64,000 nucleotides of DNA from positions 73,162,001 through 73,226,000 of the forward strand of contig NC_087436.1 of assembly GCF_036321535.1 (NCBI RefSeq), given 5' to 3'. Shown piece by piece: positions 4,162-63,722 of this stretch. The notes beneath the pieces were generated by a model, which made no database searches, was not told the DNA's origin, and saw only the letters and a list, made by a program, of their open reading frames with translations. This DNA is from Camelus dromedarius. Its lineage: Eukaryota. The position numbers and the translations under genes are program-made. Position 1 is the first letter of the stretch. Each line of letters starts with the position of its first letter.

Positions 4162-4640
4162 GATGGAATGCTACTCAGCCATAAAAAAGAATCAAATAAT
4201 GTCATTTACAGCAACATGGATGGAACTAGAGATTGTCATACTAAGTCAAGCAAGACAGAAAAAGAAAGAAATATACCATATGACATCACAGATGTAGAAT
4301 CTAAAAAAAAAATGACACAAATGAACTTATTTACAAAATAGAAACAGACTCACAGACAGAAAACAAACTTATGCATACCAGGGGGAAAGGGATAAGTGGA
4401 GGGATAAATTGGGAGTTCAAGATTTGAAGATACTAACTACTATATATAAAATAGATAAGCAACAAGATCCTACTGTACAGCACAGGGAACTCTATTCAAA
4501 ACCTTGAAATCGTCAATAATGAAAAAGAAGATGAAAGAGAATATATACAAATATATATAGCTGACTTACTATGCTGTACACCAGAAACTATCACTAAACC
4601 GACTATACTTCAATTTACATAAATAAATAAATAAAAATAA
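4162..4640 (+). mobile_element. 5'-truncated L1, 3' end (cetartiodactyl-type)
   Basis: ggaatgctactcagccataaaaaagaa...gcaacatggatggaactagagatt...cacagggaac...gactatacttcaat and A-rich tail. Confidence 0.92.
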
Positions 4641-7548: not shown

Positions 7549-9736
7549 AAGGATGTCCATTCTTGCCACTTTTATTCAACATAGTTTTGGAAGTCCTAGC
7601 CATAGCAATCAGAGAAGAAAAAGAAATAAAGGGAATCCAAATTGGAAAAAAAGTAAAACTGTCACTGTTCATGGATGACACTGTTCACGGATACTATACA
7701 TAGAAAACCATAAAGAAGCGACCAGAAAACTCCTAGAACTCATCAATGAATTTGGCAAAGTTGCAGGATACAAAATTAACATACAGAAATCAGTTGCATT
7801 TCTATACACTAACAATGAAATAGCAAAAAAAGAAATTAAGGAAACAACCCCATTTATCATTGTACCAAAAAAAATAAAATACCTAGGAATAAACCTACCC
7901 AAGGAGGCAAAGGACCTGTAATCCAAAAACTATAAGACACTGATGAAACTAAACAGATGGAAATATATACTGTGTTCTTGGATTAGAAGAATCAATATTG
8001 TTAAAATGGCCATACTACCCAAGGCAATATACAGATTCAGTGCAATCCCTATCAAATTACCAATGACATTTTTCACAGAGCTGAAACAAAAAATGATAAA
8101 ATTTGCCTGGAAACATAAAAGACCCCAAATAGCCAAAACAGTCTTGAAAAAGAACAGAGCTGGGGGAAATCATGCTTCCTGACTTCAGACTATACTACAA
8201 AGCTACAGTGATCAAAACAGTATGGTACTGACACAAAATCAGACACGTAGATCAATGAAACAGGATTAAAAAGTCCAGAAATAAACCCACCCACTTATGG
8301 TCAATTAATCTATGGAAAAGGAGGCAAAAATATACAATGGAGAAAAGACAGTCTCTTCAATAATTGATGCTGGGAAAACTGGACAGCTACCTGTAAAATA
8401 CTGAAATTAGAACATTCTCTAACACCATAAACAAAAATAAACTCAAAATGGATTAAAGATTTAAATGTAAGACTAGATACTATAAAACTCCTGGAGGAAA
8501 ACAGAGAGAACACTCTTCGACATAAATCACAGCAATATTTTTTTTTCCAACCAGCTCCTAGAAAAATGGAAATAAAAGCAAAAACAAGCAAACAAACTAA
8601 CAAATGGGATCTAATCAAACTTCAAAGCTTTTGTACAGCTAAGGATATCATCAATAAAATGAAAAGACAATCTACAGAATGGGAGAAAATATTTTCAAAT
8701 GATACAACTGGCAAGAGACTAATTTTCAAAATACACAAACAGCTCTATGTATAGCTTAATATCAAAAAAAAAAAAAAAAAAGCAGCCCAATCAAAAAATG
8801 GGCAGAAGATCTAAACAGACTTTTCTCCAAAGAAGACATACAGATGGCCAACAAGAACATGGAAAGATGCTCAGTATCACTAACTGTTAGAGAAATGCAA
8901 ATCAAAACTACAATGAGACATCACCTCACACCAGTCAGAATGGCCATCATTAAAAAGTCCACAAATGACAAATGCTGGAGAGGGTGTGGAGAAAAAGGGA
9001 CCCTCCTACACCACTGGTGGAAATGTAAATTAGTGCAGCCACTATGAAGGACAATATGGAGGTTCCTTAAAAAACTAAAAATAAACTTACCCTGTGAGCC
9101 AGCAATCCCACTCCTGGGCATATATCTGGAGAAAAATATAATTTGAAAAGACACATGCACCCCAATGTTCACAGCAGCACTATTTACAATATCCAAGACA
9201 TGGAAACAACCTAAGTGTCCATCAACAGATGACTGGGTAAAGAAGATGTGGTATATATGTATACAATGGAATACTACTCAGCCATAAAAAAGAATAAAAT
9301 AACGCCACTTGCAGCAACATGGGTGGACCTGGAGATTGTCATTCTAAGTGAAGTAAGTCAGAAAGAGAAAGAAAAATACCACATGACATTGCTTATATGT
9401 GGAATCTAAAAAAAAAAAAAAAAAAAAAAAAGACACCAATGAACTTAGCTACAAAACAGAAACAGACTCACAGACATAGAGAACAAACTTATGGTTATCA
9501 GTGGGTAAAGAGGGTGCAAAGGAATAATTAGGAATTCAAAATTTGCACCTCTTGGGGAGTGATGGAAATGTTAGCTATCTTACTTGTGGTGGTGGTTTCA
9601 TTGGTGTATACATCTATCAAAATTCATCAAATTGTACATCTGAAATATGTGTAGTTTACTGTACAGAAATCATGCCACAATAAAGGTGCTAAAAAATTCA
9701 CCAGCAAAAACTTTAAAAATAAATAAAATTGAAAAA
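7549..9736 (+). mobile_element. 5'-truncated L1 (disrupted ORF2 RT C-terminal half + 3' UTR) with atypical 3' tail, flanked by TSD
   Basis: ORF2 peptides ([68 protein letters not shown]) split by stops and frameshifts. TSD TAAAATATAGGATA (7535-7548) / TAAAATATATGATA (9737-9750). Confidence 0.96.
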
Positions 9737-23492: not shown

Positions 23493-23968
23493 TTTTCTTT
23501 TTTTTTAAGCATCTCATTGATATTTTTTTTTTAATTGAAGTATAACCAATTTACAACATGTTAATTTCTGGTGTACAGCATAGTGATTCAGTTATATATA
23601 TATATTCTTTTTCATATTCTTTTTCATTATAGGTTATTACAAGGTACTGAATATAGTTCCCCGTGCTATACAGTAGAAACTTGTTGTGTATCTATTTTAT
23701 ATACAGTAGTTAGTATCTGCAAATCTCAAACTCCCAATTTATTCCTCTCCACCCTCTTTCCCCTCTGTAACCATAAGTTTGTTTTTTATGTTTATGAATC
23801 TCTCTGTCTCTGTTTTGTAAAGAAGTTCATTTGTAAATAAGTCTTTTTTTGTAGACTCCACATATAAGTGGTATCATATGATATTTTTCTTTCTCTTTCT
23901 GGCTTACTTCACTTAGTATGATGATCATAAAGAAGAATAAAGTAATGCCATTTGCAGCAACACAGATG
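23493..23968 (-). mobile_element. L1 3' end with short 5'-inverted segment
   Basis: poly-T + aattgaagtataacc...tggcttacttcacttagtatg (antisense), then sense L1 cataaagaagaataaagtaatgccatttgcagcaacacagatg (~23926-23968). Confidence 0.88.
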
Positions 23969-25697: not shown

Positions 25698-25941
25698 CTC
25701 CTTAAAAAACTAAAAATAGAGTTGCCATATGATCCAGCAACCCACTCCTGGACATATATCCAGAGAAAACTCTAATTTGAAAAGATACAAAAGATGTTAA
25801 TAACAGCACTATTTACAGTAGTGAAGTCATAGAAGCAACCTAAGTGTTCATTGACAGAGGAATGGAGAAAGATTATATATATGTATATATATAATATATA
25901 TATATAATTATTAATTTTATAAACCATAATAAGTGTTGTTT

Positions 25942-25991
<50 letters not shown>

Positions 25992-26527
25992 AATATTATT
26001 CAGCCATAAAAAATGAAATAATGCCATTTGCAGCAACATGGGTGGACCTAGAGATTATCATACCAAATGAAGTAAGTCAGACAGAAAAAGACAAATATCA
26101 TATGATACCACTTATACATAGAAATTTTTTTAAAAGATACGAATGAACTTATTTACAAAACAGAAATAGACTCAGACATAGAAAACAAACGTATGGTTAC
26201 CAAAGGGGGAAGGAGGGGACAGGGAAGGGATAAATTAGGAGTTTGGGATTAACATATATACATACTGTATATGAGATAGGTAAATAACAAGGACCTACTG
26301 TATAGCACAGGGAACTATATTCAATGCCTTGTACTAGCTTATGATGGAAAAGAATCTCAAAAAAAAGTATGTATTTGTATATATATAACTGAATATATAT
26401 ATATTCAGAACCTGAAAAAGAATATAAATATTTGTATATATATAACTGAATCAGTTTGCTATACACCTGAAACTAATACTGCACTGAAAATTAACTATAC
26501 TTCAATTTAAAAATTGTTTTAAAAAAT
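25698..26527 (+). mobile_element. 5'-truncated L1 3' end with 17-bp TSD
   Basis: cttaaaaaactaaaaatagagttgccatatgatccagcaa...aactatacttcaat; TSD AGATCAGACTCATGAAG (25681-25697) / AGATTAGACTCATGAAG (26528-26544). Confidence 0.95.
25873..25989. repeat. (AT)n/(AC)n compound microsatellite inside the L1
   Basis: Read directly; interrupted by a 33-bp unique insert. Confidence 0.93.
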
Positions 26528-28164
26528 AGATTAGACTCATGAAGAATTTTCATTTTACCTTCTTAATCATATACCAGTAACAGCCCTTTCATTTTTCTGT
26601 AAGCTAGTTCAATTAAGGAGCCCAATTTTCTGTCCATGGGTTGGAGGTCAGAGGTGTATATATCTCAAGATGGTGAAATCTGATCGCCCCACATGCAGAA
26701 GTCCCTAAGGGAAGATGATCTTACGAAAGCCCTGAGGACAATCTGGAAATTGAAACTCAGGTTAAATGGCTCAGGATGAATTAAGTGTTCATTTTAACTG
26801 TCAAAATATTGAAAATGATAACTTTTCTCAAAACATAGACCAAAAAATATTCTTCACTAAATGTCTAAGTTTAGTGAATTTACTCAATGTCTCAGTTTGA
26901 AGTATAACAAGGAAAACATTAATTTATCTTTTGAAACCTAATGTTAGAGAGGACAACCCGGAAAATTCCTTCTAGGAAGTCACAGGGCCAGTCAGGGGGA
27001 CACAAAAATGACACAGTTATAAAAGCCCTTTAACATCCTTCTCCCAACTCTCATTTACATACTTGTTTTTCCAGCTTTCGCTGAATTACAAGCATGACCT
27101 CCCTATGGCCATTTTCTCCCTGAATTGGGGTCAAAGGCCAACTCTCCAAGGGCCAGATGAAAGACTGGCGATTCTTTTCTCTTTAACTGCTCAAAGCTAG
27201 TGGACGCTCTCCCCATCTCTTCGGTCTGCCAGATGAACTTAAGAGTATCCACATCATCCATTCCTCATTTCATTCTTTGTTTTCCCAGAAAAAAAAAAAG
27301 TGCCTTTCACCTGCCTCCTGCTCCTAGCTTCATCTTATCCTCAGAGACTCCGCTGTGCTCGGAAGGGGCTCCATGACTCTAACTGTTCCAGGATGTATCA
27401 AGTTCAGGCTCTGTGTGGACCTCTGGAGGGTCCCATCCGTTGGTACAGGGATTGATGGGAATGAAGCAGGCAGGGAGTAGCTATGGAAATCTGGGAGGCT
27501 GGCAAAGCATTCGGCACTGTTCCTGTCTCTGTCCCTACTACAGGCTTTGGAAAGTTATTACAGAATTACTAAACCCCCATGGAAAAGTTGGCAGCAGGGT
27601 GGGTGGGTGCCTTGGGTTCTGGTAATGTGAGAAAGAGTGTTCAGTGAGAACTGGAGGCATTTGTCAAACACAGAATAAATGTGGCTGAATAACATTTTGA
27701 GATAGCAATGCACCAGAGCCTTTTTCTCCCTGTATTTCCCCTTTTTGTCCCACACTCAAACAGTGGAGAGGTTGCTCTTTTTCTCAGAAGAGCTGAGTGG
27801 CAGGCTTGGAAGCAGGAAAGTACTGGAAGATGTTTTTGGCTTTTGTTTTGCAAAACCTGAATCTTTGGGTTACAGGAACTTGTGGGAATGGAAAGAGCAG
27901 TTCGAAGAAACATGAAAGGAGAAGGATTTCTCTCATATTTAAAAGAGATATTTCCAAACTGGGGAAAGGAAACAGGGAGGTTATGGATCCCAGAGCAGCA
28001 GGATTCAGCCTGGTATTCTAGTCCTATACTGGGGAGGCAGGAGGGCCAGAACTGGAACAGCTGCGTGGGGTGTCAAGGAAGACACAGCAAAGGCAGGCTC
28101 CTAAAGACTCCTGAGCCCCGCGCATGGTATTTTAGCACAGAGTTAATGTCTCTGATTTTACTCT

Positions 28165-30520: not shown

Positions 30521-32758
30521 ATAAACCTTTTATTGTTTCATACTCACATTCTTTTAGGGATGTTAACCCGCCCTTCCAGTGCCCTGACTTCAAGTCTAGA
30601 CCCAAATTAGACAGCGGTCCCAGAGCAGCGAATCTAGTCTTCTCTCTTCAGTGCAGTCACTTCCTCCCTTAACAGCCTCAGGACAACAAAGGAGACAGGG
30701 AACAGATTGGGAAGTGTGACCCATGGAAGACAACACCAATATTGGTGATAAAAACCCTTCATAAAATACTGTAACCACACTCTCTTTCCCTAGACTCCCT
30801 AGAAGAAAAAAGATCCAATTAACCTGAGAGAAAACATTTCTACAAACTGCTATTAGAATGAAGGAGGCTATTTCAAACATTTTTAGTTAAGAGCAAGAGT
30901 CAAATTGGACTCCTGTGATTTTCAAAATTCTAATCCTTTTTAAGCCCTTAATTGCTTTGTACTTGGGCTGAATTAGGAGGTTCAAATTTTTGTCCGTGAG
31001 TCTGAAGTTTGAAAGCAAACCTCGTGATTCATTCTGAGTAGAAGGAGACACTTTCAGTACCCTTAAGGAATTTATAGGGATTATCTCAGAATAAGGGTAA
31101 TTTTGAATGTCTAGGGATATTATATTAAACATAGCTATATGAAAGAGGGTGGAGAATATCAAACAAAAAGGAACTATTAAATCAAACTAGACATCACTTC
31201 TGCAAGTGTCATTCAGGAGAAAAGAAGCTATTTCTAATTTTAAATTGAATGACTAAGGTTGTGAATAATTTTCTTTTATTTATATTTTTAAACTGCCTTC
31301 TTTGGTAAGTATGCATGTATCAGAAGGGAAAACTAGGTGGTTGCAGGGACAAGAATGGGAGGGAAACCTGCCTTCCATTGGAAACACTTTTGTACTTTTG
31401 GAATTGGTACCATGTGCAAATATTAATTACCCTAATCATTTATTAGTTGCTTATTAAAGAAATAAATTTTATGCAGAATGTGGAGGCATTATCATCATTG
31501 TTATTTTGCTAACAAACTATTTTTAGAAGCCCAAATCCCACAAGCCAGAGAGAAAGTTTGAAAACAAAACAAGGGGAAAATATTTTGGATTAGTTTGGTG
31601 AATAGAGATTTCCCCCCAACCTTTGCAAGACCACCAAAAATGTCTCTTCTTTTATTTTAGGCTGTGCAGGGCTCAATACTGTGCCCTGATGAGCTAGAAA
31701 ATCAAAAGCAATAGCACATGCTAAAATCACTAGGTTTTTTTCCAGATTAAAACATTCTAAATAGTCCATTTTAGCCTACCAATAAAGGAAACAAAAATAG
31801 AGGTCATTGGATTGCCATCCTTGCCACTGAAATTACACAGTATCTCAATTCTAAAGGGCACTAGAGCAAAAAGAAAAGATGTCTGACATCATGAAAACAA
31901 AAGGTAACTATATGGCCAATCAACCTTTATCCTCTCAAGGAAATTGCACTCTGACAGGGGATGTGGAGGGTATGGGTGATGTGCTAATTCCACCATTCCC
32001 AAGTGCAACAGTCAGCACCGAATAGTCCTTTCCATGATTGCACCCAGCAGATGTTTCACTCGGTCTTATTCCCAAGCATCTGGTTTTCAAGAGGGCTCTG
32101 TTGCTGCCTCCTTTGCCCTGGAGTGGGATCAATGACGACTTCTTAACGAGAAAGAGGAAGACAAATGAGGAAGTAAAGGATGCAAAACCCACAAGCTGAT
32201 GATCTCAATGTAAAGTAAAGAAGAAAAAGGGTAATAACTTTTCAAAACCAAATCTCGGGTTTAGTGCAACACCCTCAGCTTATTTGAGGAATTCCCCTCA
32301 GGTTAGGGGAGTAGATATGACAAAAGCGCAGCACCTCCTCCCCAGCAGCTCTGAAACAAATGTGGGAAAGGAAGATGCATGGTCTCTCTTCTCCCAAAGC
32401 AGGCCCACGTGGAGTTCCAGGAAAACCCCCACGTCCCTCCTGCTCACAGGCTACCCACCCTCAGTGACCAGGCAGGAGGGTCTCTTCTTTCTGTCTTCGT
32501 TTTGTTTTTTCAGTTGGTCTTCTTACACGTTCTTAAGTCCCCTGGGATGATGTTCATTTCACACATGCACACACACGCCCCCATATCGCAAACCTTAATT
32601 CTGATGACTCTGAAGACTAAATCCCTCTTCCTCTTCTCTTTCCCCTGACTCACGTCCTAGCTTCCTCTAAGGTTCTTCCCATGGGGTAACTACCCTTCCC
32701 ATCCAAACAGGGTATTTCTAGATTCTGTCCTGTAGGTGAACGGTTAAGAGCAGAGTTC

Positions 32759-32827
32759 TTTTTTTTAATTGAAGTAGAGTTGGTTTACAATGTTGTGTTA
32801 ATTTCTAGTATACACCATAGTTTTATA

Positions 32828-32860
<33 letters not shown>

Positions 32861-33010
32861 TCCTTTTCATATTCTTTTTCATCATAGGCTATTACAAAGT
32901 ATTGAATATAGTCCCCTGTGCTATACAGTAGGACCCTGTTGTTTATCTATTTTGTATATACTAGTTACTGTCTGCTAATCCTGAACTCCCAATTTATCCC
33001 TCCACCCCTT
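32759..33010 (-). mobile_element. L1 3' end fragment
   Basis: ttttttaattgaagtagagttggtttacaatg...ccctgtgctatacagtaggacc...ctcccaatttatccctcc. Confidence 0.92.
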
Positions 33011-34844: not shown

Positions 34845-35752
34845 GATATTCAGTGAGTGTTTATAGAGCACCTATTGTATGCCAGGCACTACTCCTGGTA
34901 CAGGGAATACATCAGTGAACAAACAGGCAAAAATCCTTGTCCTTGGGAATTACACTGCGGTATAGTAGAAGGAGACCCAGAATAAATTAAAAATATGTGA
35001 AAGTAAATCAGAGAGTATGTTAAGAAGAAGAAAAGCACTACAACAACAGTAAAAGTAGAACAGAGTGAGGAGGATGGGGTGTCTGGCAGGTGGAGGTATG
35101 TAGGCAAGACTGCACTTTCCATGGGACAATCAGGGTAGCTCTCCTTGAGAAGGTGACATCTGAACAAAGGCGAGAGAGAGGTGAAGAATGAGGCTGATCA
35201 TAGATGCGAAAAAAGGAAACAGCTCAGGGTGGGCCCAATGGTGGGAAAGAGCCCAGCACCTTGGAGGAATAACGAGGAGGAAGGGGGAAAGAAGAGGAAG
35301 GGGTGAAGTCAGAGAGGCAAGGCACAGGGGGGATGGAGGGGCCAAGACACATAAGGTCTTGTAGACCAACAAAAGATTTCAACTTTACTCTGAATAAAAT
35401 AGGGAGGCCTTAGAGGATTGTAAGCACATGAATGTTATGGATCGGGTTGATGTACGTTTTAAAAATATAACTCTACCAGTCATGTTGAAAATAGGCTATA
35501 GAGGAGGAGGGAAGAAGCAAGGAAACCAGTTAGGAGTCCTCTGTAACATTCTGGAGAGAGATGTTTGTGGCTGGGAAGCAGGGTGTGGGCAACTGGTGTA
35601 GTGAGAACTGATCAAGTTATGGGTTTAATCCTAAATGTAAGATCACAAGATTTCTTGACAGACTGGATGTGAGGAAAGGAAGAAAGGAATAAAGGAAAGA
35701 AAGGAAGGAAAGAAAGGAAGGAAGGAAGGAAGGAAGGAAGAGAGATAGAGAA

Positions 35753-35836
<84 letters not shown>

Positions 35837-36320
35837 GAAGGAAGGGAGGGAGGAAGGGAGGGAGGGAGGAAGGAAGGGAGGGAGGAAGGAAGGAAGGAAA
35901 ACGAGAGAGAAAGAAAAAGAGAGAAAGAAAGAAAGAAAGGGAGAGAGAGAAAAGAAGGAAGGAAGGAAGGAAAAGGGGAGGGGAGGGGAGGGTAGGAAAG
36001 GAAAGAAAGGAAAGGAAAGGAAGGAAAGGAAAGGAAAGGAGGAAGAGAGGGAAGAAGAAAGGAAGGGAATAAAGGAAAGAAAGAAAGAGGGAAAGAAGTA
36101 GGAAAGGAGGGAAGGGAAAGGGAGGCGGGAAGGGAAGAATTCAAGGCTGACACTAAGGTTTGTGGTCTGAGCCACTGGAAGGATGGAAATGCTATCATCT
36201 GATATGGGGAAGACATCAGGTAGGCAAGTTTAAGGAGAAGATGAGTAGATCCAGTTGGGACATATTGATTGGAGATGTCAAGACGGTCAGTCAAGAAGAG
36301 GTAGTGAGAAAGCAGCTCAA
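34845..36320 (+). mobile_element. L2 LINE fragment interrupted by a polypurine SSR
   Basis: gagcacctattgtatgccaggcac...gaaggtgacatctgaacaaag...gactggatgtgagg [SSR] aattcaaggctgacactaaggtttgtggtctgagc; in this reading the L2 itself is probably antisense. Confidence 0.75.
35672..36139. repeat. ~470-bp polypurine mosaic SSR: (GGAA)n/(GAAA)20/(GGGA)n/(GGAAA)n
   Basis: Read directly; perfect GAAA run 35755-35834. Confidence 0.97.
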
Positions 36321-36324
36321 AGTC

Positions 36325-36600
36325 AAATGTAACATGTTCAGACCTACACTCTTGCATCCATCATTTCTCACCCCTAATCTGAAGCATCTCTTTGCAGTCT
36401 TCTATTTCTCCAGATATGGAAATTCTATTCAATCAGTTGCTCAAGCCAAAAACCTTCAGGTCATCCTGGACTCCCACTTTCCAACACATCCCACACCTAA
36501 TCATCAACAAACATTATCAGTTCTACTTGAAATGTACTCAGAATCTGACCATTTCTCCTTCTGTTAAATGCCACTATTTCTATCCAAATTGCTATTTTAT
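36325..36600. mobile_element. L2 fragment in the opposite orientation to 34845-36320
   Basis: cagttgctcaagccaaaaaccttcaggtcatcctggactcc...ttctacttgaaatgtactcagaatctgacc. Confidence 0.7.
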
Positions 36601-36749
36601 CTATTAAAATTAATGACTAAAATCCACTTCAGATGAACTCCTGGGCTAGACAATAAATATTAAACTTGATCTGAAGAATTATTGTCTCTGCTATTTAAAT
36701 ATTTAGTAGTGAAATGTTTAGTATTTGATATTGTAATATAAGAATTATA

Positions 36750-38500
36750 ATTTATTGCCTCTTACAGTCACTGTAGGGCACATTTGCAATTCTAAAGGGA
36801 TCTCACTTTTAGCTGAGGGTGGTAGCTAAGGGCAAGCTCTTCCATCTTAGGACTCTGCTGATAGTGGTGTTACCACCAAGGCTTTCCTTCTTTTCTAATA
36901 GTAGCTCTCATAAGATTTACCTCCCCAACTCCTGAATTTGAAGATTTGGTTAAGGGTGGTGGTATATGTCATTGAACCAGTCCTACAAAATCTAGGCATT
37001 GCCTGGAAAGATGTTTTTTGACCAATTTCAGAAGCTTTTTGTAAGATTGTTGCCCTTGCGACATCTGATTTTTTTGCATGTGTTTACTGTTTCACACAAT
37101 CACTTTTTAAAATCTGTCCTTAAACTTTGGATCTAGACATATGGCAACAGAATAATATAAGTTTCTTTGAGATAACTAAATTAGCACTGACTTTCCATCT
37201 CTATCTCGGTTTTTATTTCATGAGCACCAATATCAGCGCCTTCTCTGTAGCCAAATGCTAGAAGAATCATGTAAGGTATCATGTAAGAAATATTTTCACA
37301 ATCAATATACTTCATATTGGCCATTTCTTCAGTCAGGTCTAAAGACAAACTACACTCTCTTCAAGCAACCCTTCGACTGGTAGTGAATCCTGTCATGTTG
37401 ATATTTTTGTCTGCCAAATATAGTATTAAACTTTTCTTTGAAGGGGCCTTTTTGAATGTGTAATAGTTCCTATTCCATCCTGTTTGGACATTTTGTATAA
37501 ATTCTTGACAAGGTAGTTCAAAAACTTCTTGTATGTCATGAAACTTGTCTTTAGCTGAAAAATATTGATGGTGGCCACCATTTCCTGCTGACAGTTCAGA
37601 AATCCTATTGTATTTTTCTGTGCTGTAATTACTTTCTGAACACACAACCAAAAAGTGTGATTTGAAATACTGATTATGACTTCCAGATCACACAAAGCCT
37701 TCACCATGTCTGTTTCACTGTCAGAGTGGGTCACATGACAACTTCTTTCCTCATTTTCTATTCAATAAATATTTCTTCAATAAGATTCACTATGTTGTTG
37801 GCTGTTGTGAGACTTCACATCTTTCAGCAAACTAGTAAACAGAAACAGAATTGAATTTATCATTAATCCGCCAGGCTGTCAAACTTTAAAAAAGACATCT
37901 GGTTGTCTCCATATGCTCAAATGTCTGATGTATGATTTTCAAAAGTACTACACTTAATGATGTTACTGCCTTTGTGTTAAAAAGCAGATATGATTCAGGA
38001 AAAGAGTTTTTCAGTAGTGTGTTTTGTAGAAAGAACTTTTATCTAAGATTTGTGTGCATACCTTAAAAATCCTTCAACTGCTGAAAATTGTAAGCAGGCT
38101 GTAACAGTCATTTTGACAATTCGTTTATTTAAATGCTTAGTCTTCACAGGCTTATAACTATAAGGAATCATCTTCTGAAAGGATTCTAACAGAATCTGTG
38201 TTTCTAGATTTATTATGCCAACAAAATATATTTTGGGTACTTCCTTTTTCTCTAACACTTTATTGTCTTTATGTAAATGAAACATTTTCATGATTTGTAT
38301 TAGTTCTCAGTCTTTTTCCCTATTAAATCATTTGAAAATATTTGTTTGTTTTTTACATAAAATTAACAACTTTGACCTCTCACTAGTTATTTTATTCATA
38401 ATAACGAATGTACATTTATACTTCAAATTTCAGCATATAAAACACATGGTGAAATTTTCCCTCCAAAAACCTACTTGCTGATATTTGATAGTGATTTTAT
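36750..38500 (-). pseudogene. Fossil hAT (Ac/ZBED-like) transposase, multiply disrupted
   Basis: Colinear motifs on the minus strand: MCFIC (BED-like CxxC), LNKRIVKMTVTACLQFSAVEGF, HTSDI*, SLTAWRINDKF, SH/TANNIVNLIEE, SDSETDMVKA, SNHTF, LPCQEFIQNVQTGWNRNYY, VTPLSAES*. Confidence 0.85.
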
Positions 38501-38754: not shown

Positions 38755-38930
38755 TATGTATTCTCACCCTTAACTAGGACGTAAGCTTCTTGGATGCAGG
38801 GAGTTATTTTATTCATTGCTTTTTATTTGTTGTCTTGCTCAAAGCCAAGCACATAAAACACACTCAATAAAAATTTGATAAATGAATGAATGAATACTCT
38901 GCAGCTGTTATAAAAAACAGAAACTATCTG

Positions 38931-39755
38931 CAATTGTCCCCCCTTATCCACAGGGGATACATTCTAAGACACCCCCCATCAAAGCCTGAAACTGTGGATA
39001 GTACCAAACCCTATATAAACTATGTATTTTCCTCTACATACATACTTATGATAAAGTTTAATTTCTAAATTAGATATAGTAAGAGATTAACAATAATTAA
39101 ATAGAACAATTATAACAATATACTATAATAAAAGTTATGTGAAGGTGATCTCTCTCAAAATATCTTATTGTACAAATTTAATGCCTTTTCCATCTTAACT
39201 AAGCACTTAACACCGCACTGTGGCTGTAACCTTTGCAGTTTGAGGTACGACAGCAAAACTAGCATGAATTTCTCTTTCTGCGCAATTTCAGAGATAGATT
39301 TGTCCTTATGGTAGATCTTAGGAAACCCAGCATACGATTTTTTTTCTTTTCTTTTTAAGTCAAGAACTGTCACCTTTTCACTAACAGGAAGCACTTCAGG
39401 GCTACTCTTTGACATATCTGAATTGCCAGCATGACGACCTTTGTGCTTTGGGGCCTTTATTAAGTAAAGTAAGGGTGACATGAACACAACCTGATACCGT
39501 GACAGTCAACCTGATAACCTAAACAGCTGCTAAGTGACTAAGGGGTGGGAAATGCTGGACAAAGGGATGATTCATGACCCAGGTGGGACAAAACGGGACA
39601 GTGAGAGATTTCATCACACGACTCTGAACAGCACACAAATTAAAACTTATGGTTTGTTTATTTCAGTAATTTTCCATTTAATATTTCTGTACTACAGTTG
39701 GCTAAGGGTAACTGAAATTGTGGAGTGTGAAACCACGGAAAAGGGGGGACATCTG
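38931..39755. mobile_element. TcMar-Tigger non-autonomous element (MER44/Tigger7-like)
   Basis: Terminal inverted repeats CAATTGTCCCCCCTTATCCAC ... CACGGAAAAGGGGGGACATCTG followed by TA; interior matches recalled MER44 (gatagtaccaaaccctatata...atgataaagtttaattt). Confidence 0.85.
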
Positions 39756-40284: not shown

Positions 40285-42235
40285 CCTTCATTGCTTCTGA
40301 CAAGTAATTTGCTGCCACTCTTATATTTGCTCCTTTATATTAAACATGTCTTTTTTTCTCTGTCTGCTTTTAAGAGTTTGTCTTAATCATTGGTTTTGAA
40401 TCAAATATCATTTGATGATTATGTGCCTTCCTGTAGCTTTCTTCATAATTCTTGTGCTTAGATTCCATTTATAGTTTTGGACAATTTTCAGCAATTGTTT
40501 CTTCAAATATTTTTGTCCTTCACCCCCAATCCTTTCTCTCCTATGAGACTCCAATTCCATGTATGTTAACCACTTGAAGGTCTTTCATAGCTACTGATGC
40601 TCCTTTCATTTAAAATAATCTTCTCTCTTTGGTTTCATTTTAGGTAGTTTCTCATGCTGTGTCTACAAGTTCATTTGTTTTGTTTTCTCATGTATAATTT
40701 GCCATTAAATACATTTGGTTTTTTTTAAATCTCAAGTCTTACAGTTTCATCTCTAGAAATTCATTTTGGGTCTTTCTTATATCTTCCATTTCTCTACTAA
40801 CTGTTTGAACATACGGAATAGTTACTGTTTAAATGTACTTATCTGCTGATTCTAATATCTGTGTCAGCTCCAGGTTGTTTTTGATTAATTATTTTCCTCG
40901 TTATGGGTCATGTTTTCCTGCCTCTTTGTTTGCCTGGTAATCTTTGTTTTAATGATAGAGATTATGAATTTTAACTTGCTGGGTGCTGGGTATTTTTGTA
41001 CTCATATGAATATTCATGAACTATGCCTGAGATGCAGCTTAGTTATCCAGAAATGGTTTGATCTTATTGGGTCCTGCTTTTACAACTTGCTGTGCAGGTC
41101 CCAAGTGGCACTCCCATTTCAGGTTAATTAATCCCCACTACTAAGTATTCAACACAATCGCCCATAAACTATTTTAAGTTTTTCCAGTCTGGCTTATGGG
41201 AATAAACACTATTCCTGGAATTGTGTTCATGCCAGGAACATTTTTCTAATCCTTTTGAATTGTTTCCCCCTCTAACCACTTTGTGTAATTTTCTTGCCCA
41301 CATGCACTGATCAGTAATCCGCTGACTCTTCAAAGAAAAGCTTCTACTGTCTCCAGGCTTCTCTCTCTGTGCAGCTATCTCCTCTTTGTTACTTTGTCTT
41401 GCAAACTCTAGCCACCTTGGTGTCCCCAGGCTCACAGTTCCATCTCAATATTCACCATTATTAATTTCGTCCTTCATTGACACTGAAGTTTTTGGATCAG
41501 AGACAGATTTCTTCGTATACTCACCGCAAGATCAATAGAGTAATACTGTAGGGTCACTCCCCCGCATTTCCAAAGTAACATGAGGACCAGATATGAAAAT
41601 TTGTCCTGTGTGAGTAGCAAGCTCACCTCATAAGTGAGGAACACAGAAATACAAGTTTATCTGTCCTTGTACACAGGAGAAAGAGGTATCTGCTTCCCCT
41701 TACACATCTGAAAGTCTCTTTAGAAATGTCTTGCTCTAACCCTTTGGAATGTAAATAAATCTCTCCAGGGAAAAAATAATTCCTGTGTCTCCAGATTTAC
41801 AACTCAGAGATGTTTCCAAGTTCCAGGTTTCATCTCCTTTGAAATGTAAACACATGTCTCTGGCATTAGGTAAATCTCTCTGGAGTTCTCACTCTCTATA
41901 CAGTTGTAAATTAACTTCTAAGACTAGCTCTCAGATCAGATTCCAAGTTTCAGTAAAATGTGTTTGGAAATCCCTAACTGTGTAGAAACATAAAGATATT
42001 TTCTCTGCAACCCCACATCCTCCCTATGCCGTGACCTGGAAACCCTCGAAACAGTAAGCTGGAGCAATTGTATGACTGGCTTGTTAGTTTCCCATCTCTC
42101 AGGGATCACTATCCTTTGTGGCCAGATGGTCTGCGTCTTGAAGACTGTTGTTCTATATATTTTCTCTGGTTTTATTGGTTGATCCAGGTGGGAGAGTAAA
42201 TCTAGCTCCTGTTAATCCATTTTGGAAGGAAGTAA
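40285..42235 (-). mobile_element. Old L1M ORF1/5' region, interrupted by a probable LTR (~41480-41990)
   Basis: cagcaattgtttcttcaaatatttt...gagactccaatt...ctgattctaatatctgtgtc...; resumes at ~42030 (ggaaaccctcgaaacagtaagctgg). Confidence 0.65.
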
Positions 42236-56529: not shown

Positions 56530-56654
56530 TATTTGCAAGGCCTGAGCAGATGGACAAATGGAAGCCACACACTGTTTACTTAAATGTTTAAATTGATAGT
56601 TCAAGCTACTAACTTGTTAAATAACATATATTCCATCCTCCTACTTTGACAAAT
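56530..56654. mobile_element. hAT (MER96B-like) fragment, probably continuing beyond the L1 at ~57515-57790
   Basis: acaaatggaagccacacac...taaatgtttaaa...tgttaaataacatatattccatcctcctactttgacaaat matches recalled MER96B. Confidence 0.5.
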
Positions 56655-57512
56655 TCTCAACATCACTAATTATCAGAGAAGTGCAAATCAAAACTACACT
56701 GAGGTAGCACCTCACACCAGTCAGAATGGCCATCATTGAAGACTCTGCAAATAATAAGTGCTGGAGGAGGTGTGAAGAAAAGGGAAGCTCCTACACTGTT
56801 GGTGGGAATGTAATTTGGTGCAACCACTATGGAGAACAGTACAGAGGTTTCTTAGAAAACTAAAAATGGAGCTACTGTATGAGCAGCAATCCCACGCCTG
56901 AGCATATATCCAGAAAAGATGAAAACTGTAATTCAAAAAGATATATGCACTTCAGTGTTCATAGCAGCACTGTTTACAATAGCCAAGACATGGAAGCAAC
57001 CTAAATGTCCATTAACAGATGATTGGATAAAGAAGATGTGGGATATATATACAGTGGAATATTACTCAGTTGTAAAAAAAGAACAATATTACCATTTGCA
57101 GCAACATGGATGGACCTAGAGATTATCATACTAAGGGAAGTCAGCCAGAGAATGACAAATATTATATAATATCACTTATATGTGGAATCTAAAAATAATA
57201 CAAATGAATTTATTTACAAAACAGAAATAGACTCACAGATATAGAAAACAAACATGATTACCAAAGGGGGAAGGGGGATGATAAATTAGGAATATGGGAT
57301 AAATAGATAAAAAATAATATGTATAAAATAGATAAATAACAAGGATTTACTGTATAGCACAGGGAACTATATTCAGTATCTTGTAATAACCTATAATGGA
57401 AAAGGATCTGAAAAAATATACATATATACATATAAAACTGAATCATTTTGCTGTACACCTGAAATTAACACAATACTGTAAATCAACTATACTTCAACCA
57501 AAAAAATCAAAA
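56655..57512 (+). mobile_element. 5'-truncated L1 (ORF2 C-terminus + 3' UTR)
   Basis: ctcaacatcactaattatcagagaagtgcaaatcaaaac...[18 protein letters not shown]...aatcaactatacttcaa + A tail. Confidence 0.95.
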
Positions 57513-58189
57513 AATATTTGTACAGCTTTTATGTAATTAAAAGTTGGCAAAATATCAAAAATAACTGAATTTAACTATTATGACACATATCTGAGTATTC
57601 TGTTGATGGGCCAGAAAAATTTGCATGGGTAAAAAGTAAAGATGTATATAGCTCATAAATTATCTATTTTCAGAATAAAATTTATTGTGCTTGCCTTCAT
57701 TCCAATAAAATGAATAATTATATTATCATAATCAAGATTGTCACATAATTTGTGTTCTATTGACAGTAATGTCAAATTGATCCCATTTCTTGAGCTATTA
57801 TAGTTCTTAGTTTTTTTAAATTAATTTCAACTTGGAGAAATTTCCCTAGAAAGCAATCAGAATTGTTGATAAAATCCTTAAACCAACATTTAGATTCAAA
57901 AATAAACCTCAGATACCATGTTCAAATACTTTAACAGGGTTACAAATAATAATTATTACTGCAGAAAGCACTGCAAAACACTTTAATTTTATCCTGCCAC
58001 CACTTACATCACTATTTTCACCATAAAGTAATGCTTGGAACCTGAAGACTGTTTCTCCTACGTGTGTGCTTTGCATGCATATGTGTACATGTATGTGTGT
58101 GTGACATATGTAGTGCCCACTAAAGCATGGGCTCCAGCACAGGACCCCCTCTTATTTAGTCTAGGCAGCAGTGCTTTTCTTCTCATTGC

Positions 58190-60849: not shown

Positions 60850-61442
60850 AGAGAAGCTCTGACTCTGATGTAGTAGCCTCTGGAAAATCACATCTGAGGG
60901 ACAGGACTGTTCCATAAGGCTGAAGGATACACACACAGGCTCCTAGCCAGCAAGGTGAAATTGGCCAAAATTCCACTCACCAATAGTGTCTGGCTCAAGA
61001 CTGAGCCCAGCTGGAAGGTGCGTCCTTGTCTATGTTTCTGCTCAGAGTGCCTTTTTCTCTTCCATTAAAAGGGGCCACATAGGAAGTACCTACTCTAGTA
61101 CGAGTCTAAGCTCCAGCCTTACCTTTCCTACACATGAAGGCTTGGGCCTTTCTCTCTCTGTGATCTTTATACATACGTCTATACTTAAGCACTTATCACA
61201 TTGTGTTAGCTTATTTGCATGTCTGTCTTCCCATAAGATTGTGAGATTCCTGAAAGTAATCATATTCCTGTCTTTATTTTCATTTCTTAGCATAGAACCT
61301 GGTACAAAATAATTTGTGCCAATGCTTAAAAAGCACGCTTGTTGTATGAGGGTTTGGAAAGATGGATGGATGGTTGGACACATGGATGGATGGATGGACA
61401 GATGAGTGGAATCCAGAAAACCTCTATCAAGAACATGAAAAT

Positions 61443-61554
61443 GGTATAATGGAAAAGAATCTGAAAAAGAATAGATAAATTTATATATGTATAACTGAAT
61501 CACTTTGCTGTACACCTGAAATATTGTAAATCAACTATACTTCAATTTTTAAAA
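61443..61554 (+). mobile_element. Very short L1 3' tail with TSD
   Basis: ataatggaaaagaatctgaaaaagaa...gctgtacacctgaa...caactatacttcaat; TSD AAGAACATGAAAAT (61429-61442) / AAGAACATGGAAAT (61555-61568). Confidence 0.9.
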
Positions 61555-62709
61555 AAGAACATGGAAATAGGCTTGGAGTCAGGGCAGAGGACTCCACTTC
61601 TGCTCTCTCTCTATCCCTTGACACTATTAGTGAGTGAGCAGAGAATAAAAGTCAAAGTTGCCAAATGAAGATTTTGTTAATGATAGCATACCTTACTCAA
61701 TAAGCCAACACAACTGTATGCAACTAACCCTGTCCTGTGTTTTTAGAGGTTGTGCTAGGTAGCCCCCGCCACGATCAAATACCCACCCTTCTCCACCCCA
61801 CTTAGTACCCCAGGAGGCTGGCCTATATGGGCAACATCAAGGCACCTAAAGAAGCACTCTGAGGCATGTTACCCTCTCCCTGGCTTTCCCCATCCCCCAG
61901 CCTCAAAACATATATTTTCTGAATATTCCTTAAAGTGAGAGAATATAGACATAAATATCACCCTTCCTAAAGTTCCCCTGTAGATGGTGGAGACTTTCAC
62001 TAATTGTGAGCTCTCTGATAAGCAATCTAACGCTTGGGTGGAAAGCAGTTTTAATGGAGCCTTTATTTCCTTGGAAACCAGCCTCCGGTGCAGAGCACTG
62101 AGTACTCGAACATCAACAGCAGCAAATCCACTCCAAGCACAACAGAACAAGCAAATATCCTTTATTTAACAAATTTGAATGCTTTGCCTCCTCACTGGAG
62201 GCAAGCTGCGGGGGGCGGACATTTTCTTCTAAAGCTTGTTCTCTAATCCATCACTTCTCAAACTCCTTTAAAAGAGTGTAAGTGGAAAAATACACTATGT
62301 TGTAGTACACAGCAGAACAGATAGTTGAGGTTGTTGGTTGCTACAGACAACTAGCTCAAGGGCTCCATCCCAGTATCACCTGTAGTACCAAAGGGGAGCG
62401 GTATCTTGGCACAGGGCATCCCCCGTTTGTGTGGCTCAGCGAATTCCAGGGCTGAAAATAGACAGGTGGCACGTACTTCACACATCCCTGATACTGACAC
62501 TGAACAGTGGACCCGGGAGGCTTCCACTAGAACCACAGCCTCCATGCCCCTGAAAACTGGGTGTCATCGTGGCCACCACTGTTGCCATCTCAGAGTGGAT
62601 TGTGCCTGGCTTATTTCATGGAGCTGGGAGGGTGATTTGGTCCGTTGTTTTCCGGTGAGTAGTCTCCAAGCCTGGTTATCCAGGCTTTTTCGGAAAGTAT
62701 AACCTCTCT

Positions 62710-63722
62710 TTATTTAATATTTTAAATTCATTCACATTGTTCTAAGCTCAAAGCACAACAATAAGAGATGCTAAAGAAGTTTCCTTCTCCCTTTGCACCC
62801 CATCGGCCCTCAGACCTTCAGGTAACCACTCTTAAAAGTTTGTGTAGGGGTAGGGATACCTTAGGAGTTTGGGATTAACAAATACACACTACTATATATA
62901 AAACAGATAAACAACAAGGACCCACTGTATAGCACAGGGAACTATATTCAATTTCTCATAATGAGCTGTAATGGAAAAGAATCTGAAAAAAAATACATGT
63001 ATGTATTACTGTACAATCACCTTCCTGTACACCTGAAACTAACATTGTAAATAGACTGCACTTCAATAAGAAAACAAGAATTTTTTAAAAAATTTTAGGT
63101 ATCCTCCCAGCTTTTCTTTTTGCAAGCATAATGAACACAAATATTATTTTCAATTCCTTTTCTTGCACAAATGGTAGCAGTGCTATCCACATACTATGTG
63201 TCTGTATGCATTCTCTTACAACTTCCTTTTTTTACTTAACAAAATATCCACATGGGTACACAGAGCGCCTTCTCATCCTCTTTTACAGTGACACGGAATT
63301 CCATTGCGTGGATGCACCACAGTTTATTTTAACCAGTATCTATTGATGTTCATTTGGCTTGTTCCCAATTTTTAGCTATTGTAAACAGCGCTATATATGT
63401 CATTTTTTACGAATATAGATATGTCTTTAGAAGAATTCCCAGAAACAGGACTACTGGGTCAAAAGATAAGTGCATTTGTAATTTAGATAAATATCACCAA
63501 ATTGATCTCCAGAGAAGTTTATCATTTTGTACCCCTACCAGCAATGTCTAGGGGTGCCTATTCCTCCAGAGCCTTGCTAACAGAGTATGTTATCCAATTT
63601 TTGGACTTTTGCCATCCTGATAGGTGAAAAATGAAGTCTTAGTGTAGTTTTAAATTTCATTTATCTTATTGTGAGGGAGGTTTATCATCTTTTCATTTGT
63701 TTAAGGCCATCTGCATTTCCTA
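62710..63722 (-). mobile_element. Old L1M (ME/MD-like) 3' region
   Basis: ggtaaccactctt...[L1 insert]...cattttgtacccctaccagcaatgt...tttgccatcctgataggtgaaaaatg. Confidence 0.75.
62846..63090 (+). mobile_element. L1 3' tail nested in an older L1
   Basis: ggagtttgggattaacaaatacacactactatatataaaacagataaacaacaaggacc...cagggaactatattcaa. Confidence 0.9.

What the first reader, a model, noticed from the sequence alone, without database searches (positions are those of the whole stretch)
36750..38500. Hidden, near full-length fossil hAT/ZBED-type transposase spread over several short minus-strand ORFs
Seen: joining minus-strand frames across stops and frameshifts gives, in order, ENFTMCFIC (~38435-38460), LNKRIVKMTVTACLQFSAVEGF (38067-38132), HTSDI* (D codon 37923-37925, TGA where W is expected), SLTAWRINDKF (~37853-37885), SH/TANNIVNLIEEIFIE*, HSDSETDMVKA (D at 37720-37722), SNHTF (~37657), FIQNVQTGWNRNYY (37460-37501) and VTPLSAES* (stop at 36847-36849). 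Established: Ac-family and ZBED1/4/6 transposases carry a BED CxxC, a D.xP.S.VE..GF block, D-x-W (first catalytic D), SLTAHW, HT..NI, TDN..NM..A (second D), CxxH, LIQDV.TRWNS.Y and P..S..SER (catalytic E). Inference: the order and spacing match one transposase of roughly 550-600 codons, with the catalytic E mutated GAA->TAA. No single ORF in the track reveals it.
Basis: partly seen in the sequence, partly recalled or inferred. Interest (0 to 1): 0.7.

Follow-up and report, generated by a model that had tools for sequence, protein, structure and literature searches.

The report
Ancient dead hAT transposase fossil
This stretch of a mammal-like genome is the broken, frameshifted remains of a cut-and-paste jumping-gene enzyme of the hAT type, and it is likely an ordinary, very old transposon copy that was already damaged before today's placental mammal lineages split.

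Summary
The fossil is real. Aligned across frameshifts, a profile of 91 intact hAT transposases matches minus-strand 38198-37110 colinearly: 110 bits against a best control of 21.8, 360 codons, 8 stops, 5 frameshifts. The start of the dimerisation domain lies at 36914-36822 (0 of 200 controls reach it). Two details fail. The 'catalytic E to TAA' is an out-of-frame misreading (0.2 bits against 21.3 bits for the same bases in another frame); the true Glu position lies about 45-60 nt further on and is unresolved. The BED finger is unsupported (198 of 300 controls score as well). No TIRs or TSD survive. The closest intact proteins are only 25-32% identical ('ZBED4-like' animal hATs); no intact orthologue was found among 1.84 billion representatives. 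Decayed relatives in other genomes fall into two groups, likely orthologues of this copy and of a second copy. The damage fits neutral decay over about 0.3 substitutions per site, though that test is weak. The scan found a similar fossil in this genome before (e1-9021956). Dfam/Repbase could not be searched. Ordinary; low interest.

The parts
37110..38198 (-). Alignable transposase core, profile columns 89-460 of 627: dimerisation/DNA-binding box, RNase H-like fold with D1 and D2, helical insertion up to the LDP(R/K)F motif. 8 stops; frameshifts near 37885, 37808, 37743, 37576 and 37160-37185.
   Evidence: 110 bits, 360 codons, 102 identical to the profile majority; Atlas 0.96 to PF27039 clusters, lead only; PF14372 at E 0.025 on 37041-37178, below cut-off
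37923..37925 (-). First catalytic Asp codon (GAC), kept; the Trp two codons on is a TGA stop
   Evidence: column 184 is D in 88 of 91 intact proteins
37720..37722 (-). Second catalytic Asp codon (GAC), kept
   Evidence: column 252 is D in 90 of 91
37657..37659 (-). His of the CxxH motif, kept; the Cys column holds Ile
37475..37480 (-). R-W motif: Trp kept, Arg column holds Gly. The Gly is shared with the decayed relatives P0004, P0016 and P0017.
   Evidence: R in 87 of 91 intact rows, G in none
36915..37109 (-). Linker between LDP(R/K)F and the dimerisation domain: about 65 codons where the profile has 83 low-complexity columns; not alignable above chance
   Evidence: 20 of 300 controls reach the score; partly similar to decayed relative P0143 in another frame
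36822..36914 (-).
   Evidence: 19.3 and 22.4 bits, 0 of 200 controls at each setting
36720..36821 (-). Eroded remainder of the C-terminal domain; the catalytic Glu should lie here (candidates GAG 36804-36802 or GAA 36792-36790), unresolved
   Evidence: best local 11.0 bits, 70 of 300 controls reach it
38199..38459 (-).
   Evidence: (forced alignment -4.6 bits)

Best explanation
This is the decayed transposase gene of a hAT (Ac-type) cut-and-paste DNA transposon, broken by stops and frameshifts, and it likely inserted in an early mammalian ancestor and has since been inherited as neutrally decaying DNA. Shown: the colinear homology, the two Asp codons, the breakage, and the loss of recognisable ends. 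From established knowledge of the family: the intact parent would have bound its terminal inverted repeats, cut the element out via hairpin-capped flanks with the DDE triad and the CxxH and W residues, and pasted it in with an 8-bp target duplication (PMC4763223, PMC10368747, passages). Inferred: this copy was one of at least two long copies of the family, it had already lost the invariant Arg of the R-W motif before the carriers of group-A relatives diverged, and it now makes no transposase.
For:: colinear alignment far above controls; the best intact hit P0007 carries zf-BED and Dimer_Tnp_hAT. P0007 aligns with Hermes over about 450 residues (E 2e-27), which fixes the catalytic columns; of 11 hits among 1.84 billion representatives, 8 are short ORFs (44-165 aa) and 3 are transposase-like at 28-32% identity; none is an intact close relative; the short ORFs form group A (54-69% identical to the window) and group B (55-76% within, 29-50% to group A); group A shares the Gly and two neighbouring changes at near-invariant columns. 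P0143 matches the window across two different frames, as expected for DNA-level descent without frame constraint; the observed 2.2 stops and 1.4 frameshifts per 100 codons, 26 of 65 invariant residues and score 110 all fall within the 5-95% range of simulated neutral decay at d=0.35; the best TIR+TSD score of 17 equals that of shuffled flanks (16-17).
Against: No DNA or species name could be obtained for any decayed relative (searches found nothing; searches give no names), so orthology, flanks and copy number are inferred from short ORFs, which are selected for being open. The simulation has little power: stop and frameshift rates barely differ between d=0.15 and d=0.35, and at d=0.25 the invariant fraction (0.40) lies below the 5th percentile (0.46). 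No TIR or TSD was found, so element ends do not prove a transposon origin for this copy. The whole genome was not available, so no copy count exists. Group B could be the same locus in faster-evolving or more distant mammals.
Confidence: 0.85

Rival explanations
1. A lost domesticated ZBED-like host gene: the transposase was tamed in early mammals, drifted away from the catalytic consensus while still coding, and was later pseudogenised in the sampled lineages.
For: No TIRs, long colinear span without large internal deletions, and only 26 of 65 invariant residues kept. Two of the window's frameshifts are not shared by the ORFs that span them (P0004 group near 37576; P0002 group and P0011 near 37185). 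ZBED domestication from hATs has happened repeatedly (PMC3606216, parts 1-2 read). The simulation cannot exclude it.
Against: No intact orthologue among 1.84 billion representatives. All close relatives are short broken ORFs at identities expected for neutral divergence. A second group of relatives suggests more than one copy. ORF hits span open frames by construction, so unshared frameshifts carry little weight.
Confidence: 0.07
2. A pseudogene copy (duplicate or retrocopy) of a known ZBED gene (ZBED1, ZBED4, ZBED6, C7ORF29/ZBEDX).
For: Intact relatives carry the automatic name 'ZBED4-like'. ZBED genes share this domain order (PMC3606216).
Against: The exhaustive search returned no full-length protein above 30% identity, whereas a mammalian parent gene should have ranked first (inference: the library has no names, so the presence of ZBED genes in it was not checked). 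No neighbour genes of known ZBED loci were seen in 149 of 243 open frames scanned. No direct comparison with named ZBED proteins was possible.
Confidence: 0.04
3. A dead transposase whose DNA has been kept for a non-coding (regulatory) role, as described for some ancient fossils.
For: Relatives are still alignable across genomes. Short contigs of RNA or RNA-guessed runs cover parts of it. Frith 2022 (PMC9004415) reports exapted hAT fossils.
Against: Identities of 54-69% correspond to about 0.17-0.28 substitutions per site in simulation, in the range I recall for neutral DNA between placental orders, so there is no sign of excess conservation. The RNA contigs are short, low in depth, unjoined, and may be DNA.
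Confidence: 0.04

Closest known systems
Animal hAT transposases auto-named 'zinc finger BED domain-containing protein 4-like' (Linepithema P0111/P0151, Choristoneura P0022, Rhinophrynus P0104, Brachyhypopomus P0119; unnamed P0007, P0096)
   Same: Same motif order and spacing from the dimerisation box to the start of the C-terminal domain; D1, D2, the His of CxxH and the Trp of R-W kept.
   Different: Only 25-32% identical in pairwise frameshift alignments (top 15 and named rows of 113). The fossil sits on a branch of 2.48 against a median of 0.16 and has no supported sister. It is broken; BED finger and Glu not recognisable.
Hermes (Musca domestica; PDB 2bw3, 4d1q, 8edg), Ac family of hAT
   Same: P0007, the bridge protein, aligns with Hermes over residues 177-627 at E 2e-27; same catalytic architecture.
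   Different: The fossil piece itself gave no Hermes hit. Hermes is active with 17-bp TIRs and 8-bp TSDs (PMC10368747); none survive here.
Ancient mammalian hAT fossils: autonomous Blackjack, Charlie, Cheshire, Arthur and Zaphod families (PMC5753468), and the protein fossils of Frith 2022 (PMC9004415; its Table 5 lists 7 hAT-Ac pre-amniote fossils in human, 1 known before)
   Same: Same kind of object: a degraded hAT transposase found only by frameshift-aware alignment.
   Different: Whether a named Dfam/Repbase family or one of Frith's fossils covers this locus could not be tested. At about 1.4 kb alignable it is longer than the hAT fossils in the table rows I saw (164-625 bp).
Domesticated ZBED genes (ZBED1, 4, 6, C7ORF29/ZBEDX; PMC3606216)
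   Same: hAT Ac-family origin and domain order.
   Different: Those are intact, syntenically conserved ORFs; this has no open frame over 111 codons in the interval and no intact orthologue was found.

Membership tests
hAT superfamily transposase | Colinear homology to hAT transposases over the catalytic core | tested here: met
hAT superfamily transposase | First and second catalytic Asp | tested here: met
   GAC at 37925-37923 and 37722-37720 in columns that are D in 88 and 90 of 91
hAT superfamily transposase | Catalytic Glu in the C-terminal domain | tested here: inconclusive
hAT superfamily transposase | CxxH and R-W motifs | tested here: inconclusive
   His and Trp kept, Cys and Arg columns changed (decay)
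hAT superfamily transposase | C-terminal dimerisation domain (PF05699) | tested here: met
   first third aligns, 0 of 200 controls; a direct Pfam scan of the piece gave no hit
hAT superfamily transposase | N-terminal BED zinc finger | tested here: inconclusive
   198 of 300 controls reach the best local score; a CxxC lies at a plausible distance but no His pair follows
hAT transposon (whole element) | Short TIRs and 8-bp target-site duplication | tested here: not met
   best score 17, shuffled 16-17; one search showed no convincing pair among the 25 longest of 251. It is filed as a fossil transposase gene, not as a bounded element.
hAT transposon (whole element) | Multiple dispersed copies | tested here: inconclusive
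   no second copy in the window; genome not held; two groups of decayed relatives suggest at least two loci
Ac family (versus Buster or Tip100) | Phylogenetic placement with Ac/Hermes/ZBED1-type transposases | tested here: inconclusive
   all intact hits are 'ZBED4-like' and P0007 matches Hermes, but no Buster or Tip100 reference was in the tree
Named Dfam/Repbase family | DNA match to a family consensus | not testable with these tools
Domesticated ZBED gene | Intact ORF with conserved orthologues | tested here: not met
   8 stops and 5 frameshifts in the core; no intact orthologue

The most novel reading that the evidence does not exclude
The locus is a ninth-plus ZBED-type domestication: a hAT transposase tamed as a host gene in early mammals, which lost catalytic residues while still coding and was then lost in every lineage sampled, leaving near full-length orthologous ruins.
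Probability: 0.07. Interest if true: 0.6.

Novelty: new member of a known kind. Interest (0 to 1): 0.15.

Why it matters
As read here it adds one long fossil to the known record of extinct mammalian hAT transposons. If no Dfam/Repbase consensus covers it (I put that at roughly one in three, untested), this locus, its likely orthologues and the second group of copies would allow an unnamed, very old autonomous hAT family to be described and dated, which is useful to repeat curators but not surprising. Only the lost-host-gene reading would interest a wider audience, and the evidence weighs against it.

Tried and rejected
Pfam on six whole frames: nothing relevant. Pfam on 10 in-frame pieces: one weak PF14372 hit and two unrelated weak hits. 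Word-based homologue search with the longest piece: 0 of 195 candidates scored. PDB search with that piece: only chance hits at E 1-1.5. Whole genome not held. Two metagenome scans for DNA of relatives: 0 of 22 and 0 of 162 pattern matches confirmed. A second Atlas look-up for the N-terminal third was not obtained, so that third rests alone. TIR/TSD search: chance level. Tree: the fossil attaches next to two ant proteins at support 0.78 on a very long branch, so no donor or horizontal-transfer claim is made. RNA: 4 runs laid, all contigs; 8 pieces of real length or short chance matches, no joints. One 616-nt contig (run only guessed to be RNA) covers 37284-37883 and ends in 16 A on the + strand, opposite to the transposase, at an A-rich genomic spot, likely internal priming; runs X18 and X19 held under 10% of the words. 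This is no evidence of a transposase mRNA and none against. Host-gene context: 149 of 243 open frames of 60 aa or more scanned, no hit above a Pfam cut-off; Rfam none. Look-alikes among earlier findings: none by DNA or by P0006.

Full report
Setting. The window is 39% G+C with CpG observed/expected of 0.16, microsatellites and LINE-1 pieces (RVT_1 hit at 7679-7918, below cut-off), i.e. mammal-like DNA. Runs of about 2 Gb from one coded organism hold the stretch in full (14 of 24 listed runs). No whole genome is held.

Observation. No single frame gives a relevant Pfam hit. The longest in-frame piece (37579-37139, stops as X) was searched by phmmer against 1.84 billion representatives and gave 11 hits. 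One, P0007, is an intact 637-aa protein with zf-BED and Dimer_Tnp_hAT that aligns with Hermes at E 2e-27. Its relatives (393 found, 120 listed) supplied 91 proteins of 550 aa or more. Of these, 75 hit the locus by tblastn at E<1e-3 and none hits elsewhere in the window. A frameshift-aware alignment of their profile gave 71.6 bits with strict penalties, against at most 29.0 in 46 other tiles. With relaxed penalties, chosen after the first run, it gave 110 bits over columns 89-460 = window 38198-37110, against at most 21.8 in 40 controls. The central piece is partly circular because it found the homologues. The N-terminal third (26.1 and 33.9 bits) and C-terminal third (19.3 and 22.4 bits) are not, and each beat 200 of 200 controls; the C-terminal margin is thin (control maxima 18.4 and 20.7).

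In that register the motif scores 0.2 bits, and the surrounding 49 codons score -25. The same bases read in another frame give WW...ALSY, which scores 21.3 bits against columns 558-576. The Glu is column 587, eleven codons after that block, so it must lie near 36805-36790. Two Glu codons are there, but the region is not above chance (70 of 300 controls), so the state of the third catalytic residue is unknown. The BED finger is also unproven: the nine-residue CxxC candidate scores 11.9 bits ungapped, below the control mean of 13.1, and the forced alignment of the domain is negative. D1 and D2 are confirmed. Of 65 near-invariant core columns, 26 are kept.

Relatives. Eight of the 11 phmmer hits, and three more, are short unnamed ORFs of 44-165 aa. 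Seven of the 13 short ORFs tested match the intact-transposase profile on their own at E 0.002 or better; the other six do not. They form two groups. Group A is 54-69% identical to the window. In it, P0004, P0016 and P0017 share with the window a Gly where 87 of 91 intact proteins have Arg, and changes at the next Ser and Thr columns. Group B (P0005, P0006, P0009) is 55-76% identical within and 29-50% to group A, and has a different residue at that column. In simulation 54-69% identity corresponds to about 0.17-0.28 substitutions per site. My inference is that group A are orthologues of this insertion in other mammals, inherited after damage had begun, and that group B marks a second old copy. 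This is not shown: no DNA, flanks or species were obtained. Intact relatives are all about equally distant (25-32% in the rows printed of 113; tree branch 2.48), so no source lineage can be named.

Age and mode of decay. Simulated neutral decay of six intact cores (60 replicates per level, my own rate settings) reproduces the score, stop rate, frameshift rate and invariant fraction at d=0.35, and all but the invariant fraction at d=0.25. That is about the age of L2/MIR repeats (recalled), and L2-like fragments flank the fossil on both sides (recognised by eye; names recalled). The test does not separate this from an early coding phase followed by later decay, because stop rates overlap widely across levels. 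No TIR or TSD is detectable. RNA contigs give no sign of a sense transcript, but cannot exclude one.

Mechanism. The parent would have worked as other hATs do: BED-assisted binding of the ends, DDE-catalysed excision with hairpins on the flanks that need CxxH and the conserved Trp residues, and integration with an 8-bp duplication (PMC4763223 and PMC10368747, passages found by term search). This copy cannot encode that enzyme: it has a stop two codons after D1 and at least 9 stops and 5 frameshifts in the alignable parts.

Comparison with the literature. PMC3606216 (parts 1-2 of 4 read) lists the domesticated ZBED genes; this locus fails their defining feature of an intact ORF. PMC5753468 (passages) lists autonomous human hAT families. 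PMC9004415 (abstract, passages, section 6; supplement listed but not opened) shows that such fossils number 100,000-500,000 per genome, are mostly already annotated, and include hAT-Ac examples; its supplement and data files may cover the human orthologue. Five paper searches showed no description of this locus in their listings, but a repeat-library entry would not appear there. An earlier agent reached the same verdict for another 'ZBED4-like' fossil 9.5 Mb away (e1-9021956); no DNA look-alike links the two, and that note is not independent support.

Verdict. It is a very old dead hAT transposase, a new member of a known kind at most. Interest 0.15.

Noticed in passing
window 38931-39755: An 825-bp element with terminal inverted repeats (arms agree at 16 of the first 20 bases); it resembles a MER44/Tigger7-type non-autonomous Mariner element (name recalled, not tested).
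   Followed up: partly
window about 38760-38900 and about 35000-36640: L2-like fragments on both sides of the fossil, in both orientations (recognised by eye; name recalled).
   Followed up: no
window 37284-37883: A 616-nt contig from a run guessed to be RNA ends in 16 A on the + strand, antisense to the transposase, at an A-rich genomic spot; likely internal priming on a + strand transcript.
   Followed up: partly
window 35674-36115: About 440-bp GAAA/GGAA purine-rich simple repeat inside the L2-like stretch.
   Followed up: no
window 4163-4633, 8867-9547, 23524-23926, 25699-26513, 32756-33009, 56653-57516, 61422-61559, 62846-63080: At least eight mutually similar pieces at 72-83% identity, probably LINE-1 3' ends; L1 ORF2-like frames at 7679-9277.
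   Followed up: no
window 27644-28072 (-): A 143-codon open frame with a weak Pfam TMEM145_N hit (E 0.00068, 20.4 bits against a cut-off of 28.1; one of 149 frames scanned), overlapping a 184-codon frame on the + strand; probably chance.
   Followed up: no
window about 40300-41300 (-): A-rich stretch resembling an old L1 5'/ORF1 region (by eye).
   Followed up: no
proteins P0005, P0006, P0009: A second group of decayed hAT ORFs from unnamed contigs (P0006 seen on 20 contigs) that likely marks another ancient copy of the same or a sister family.
   Followed up: partly
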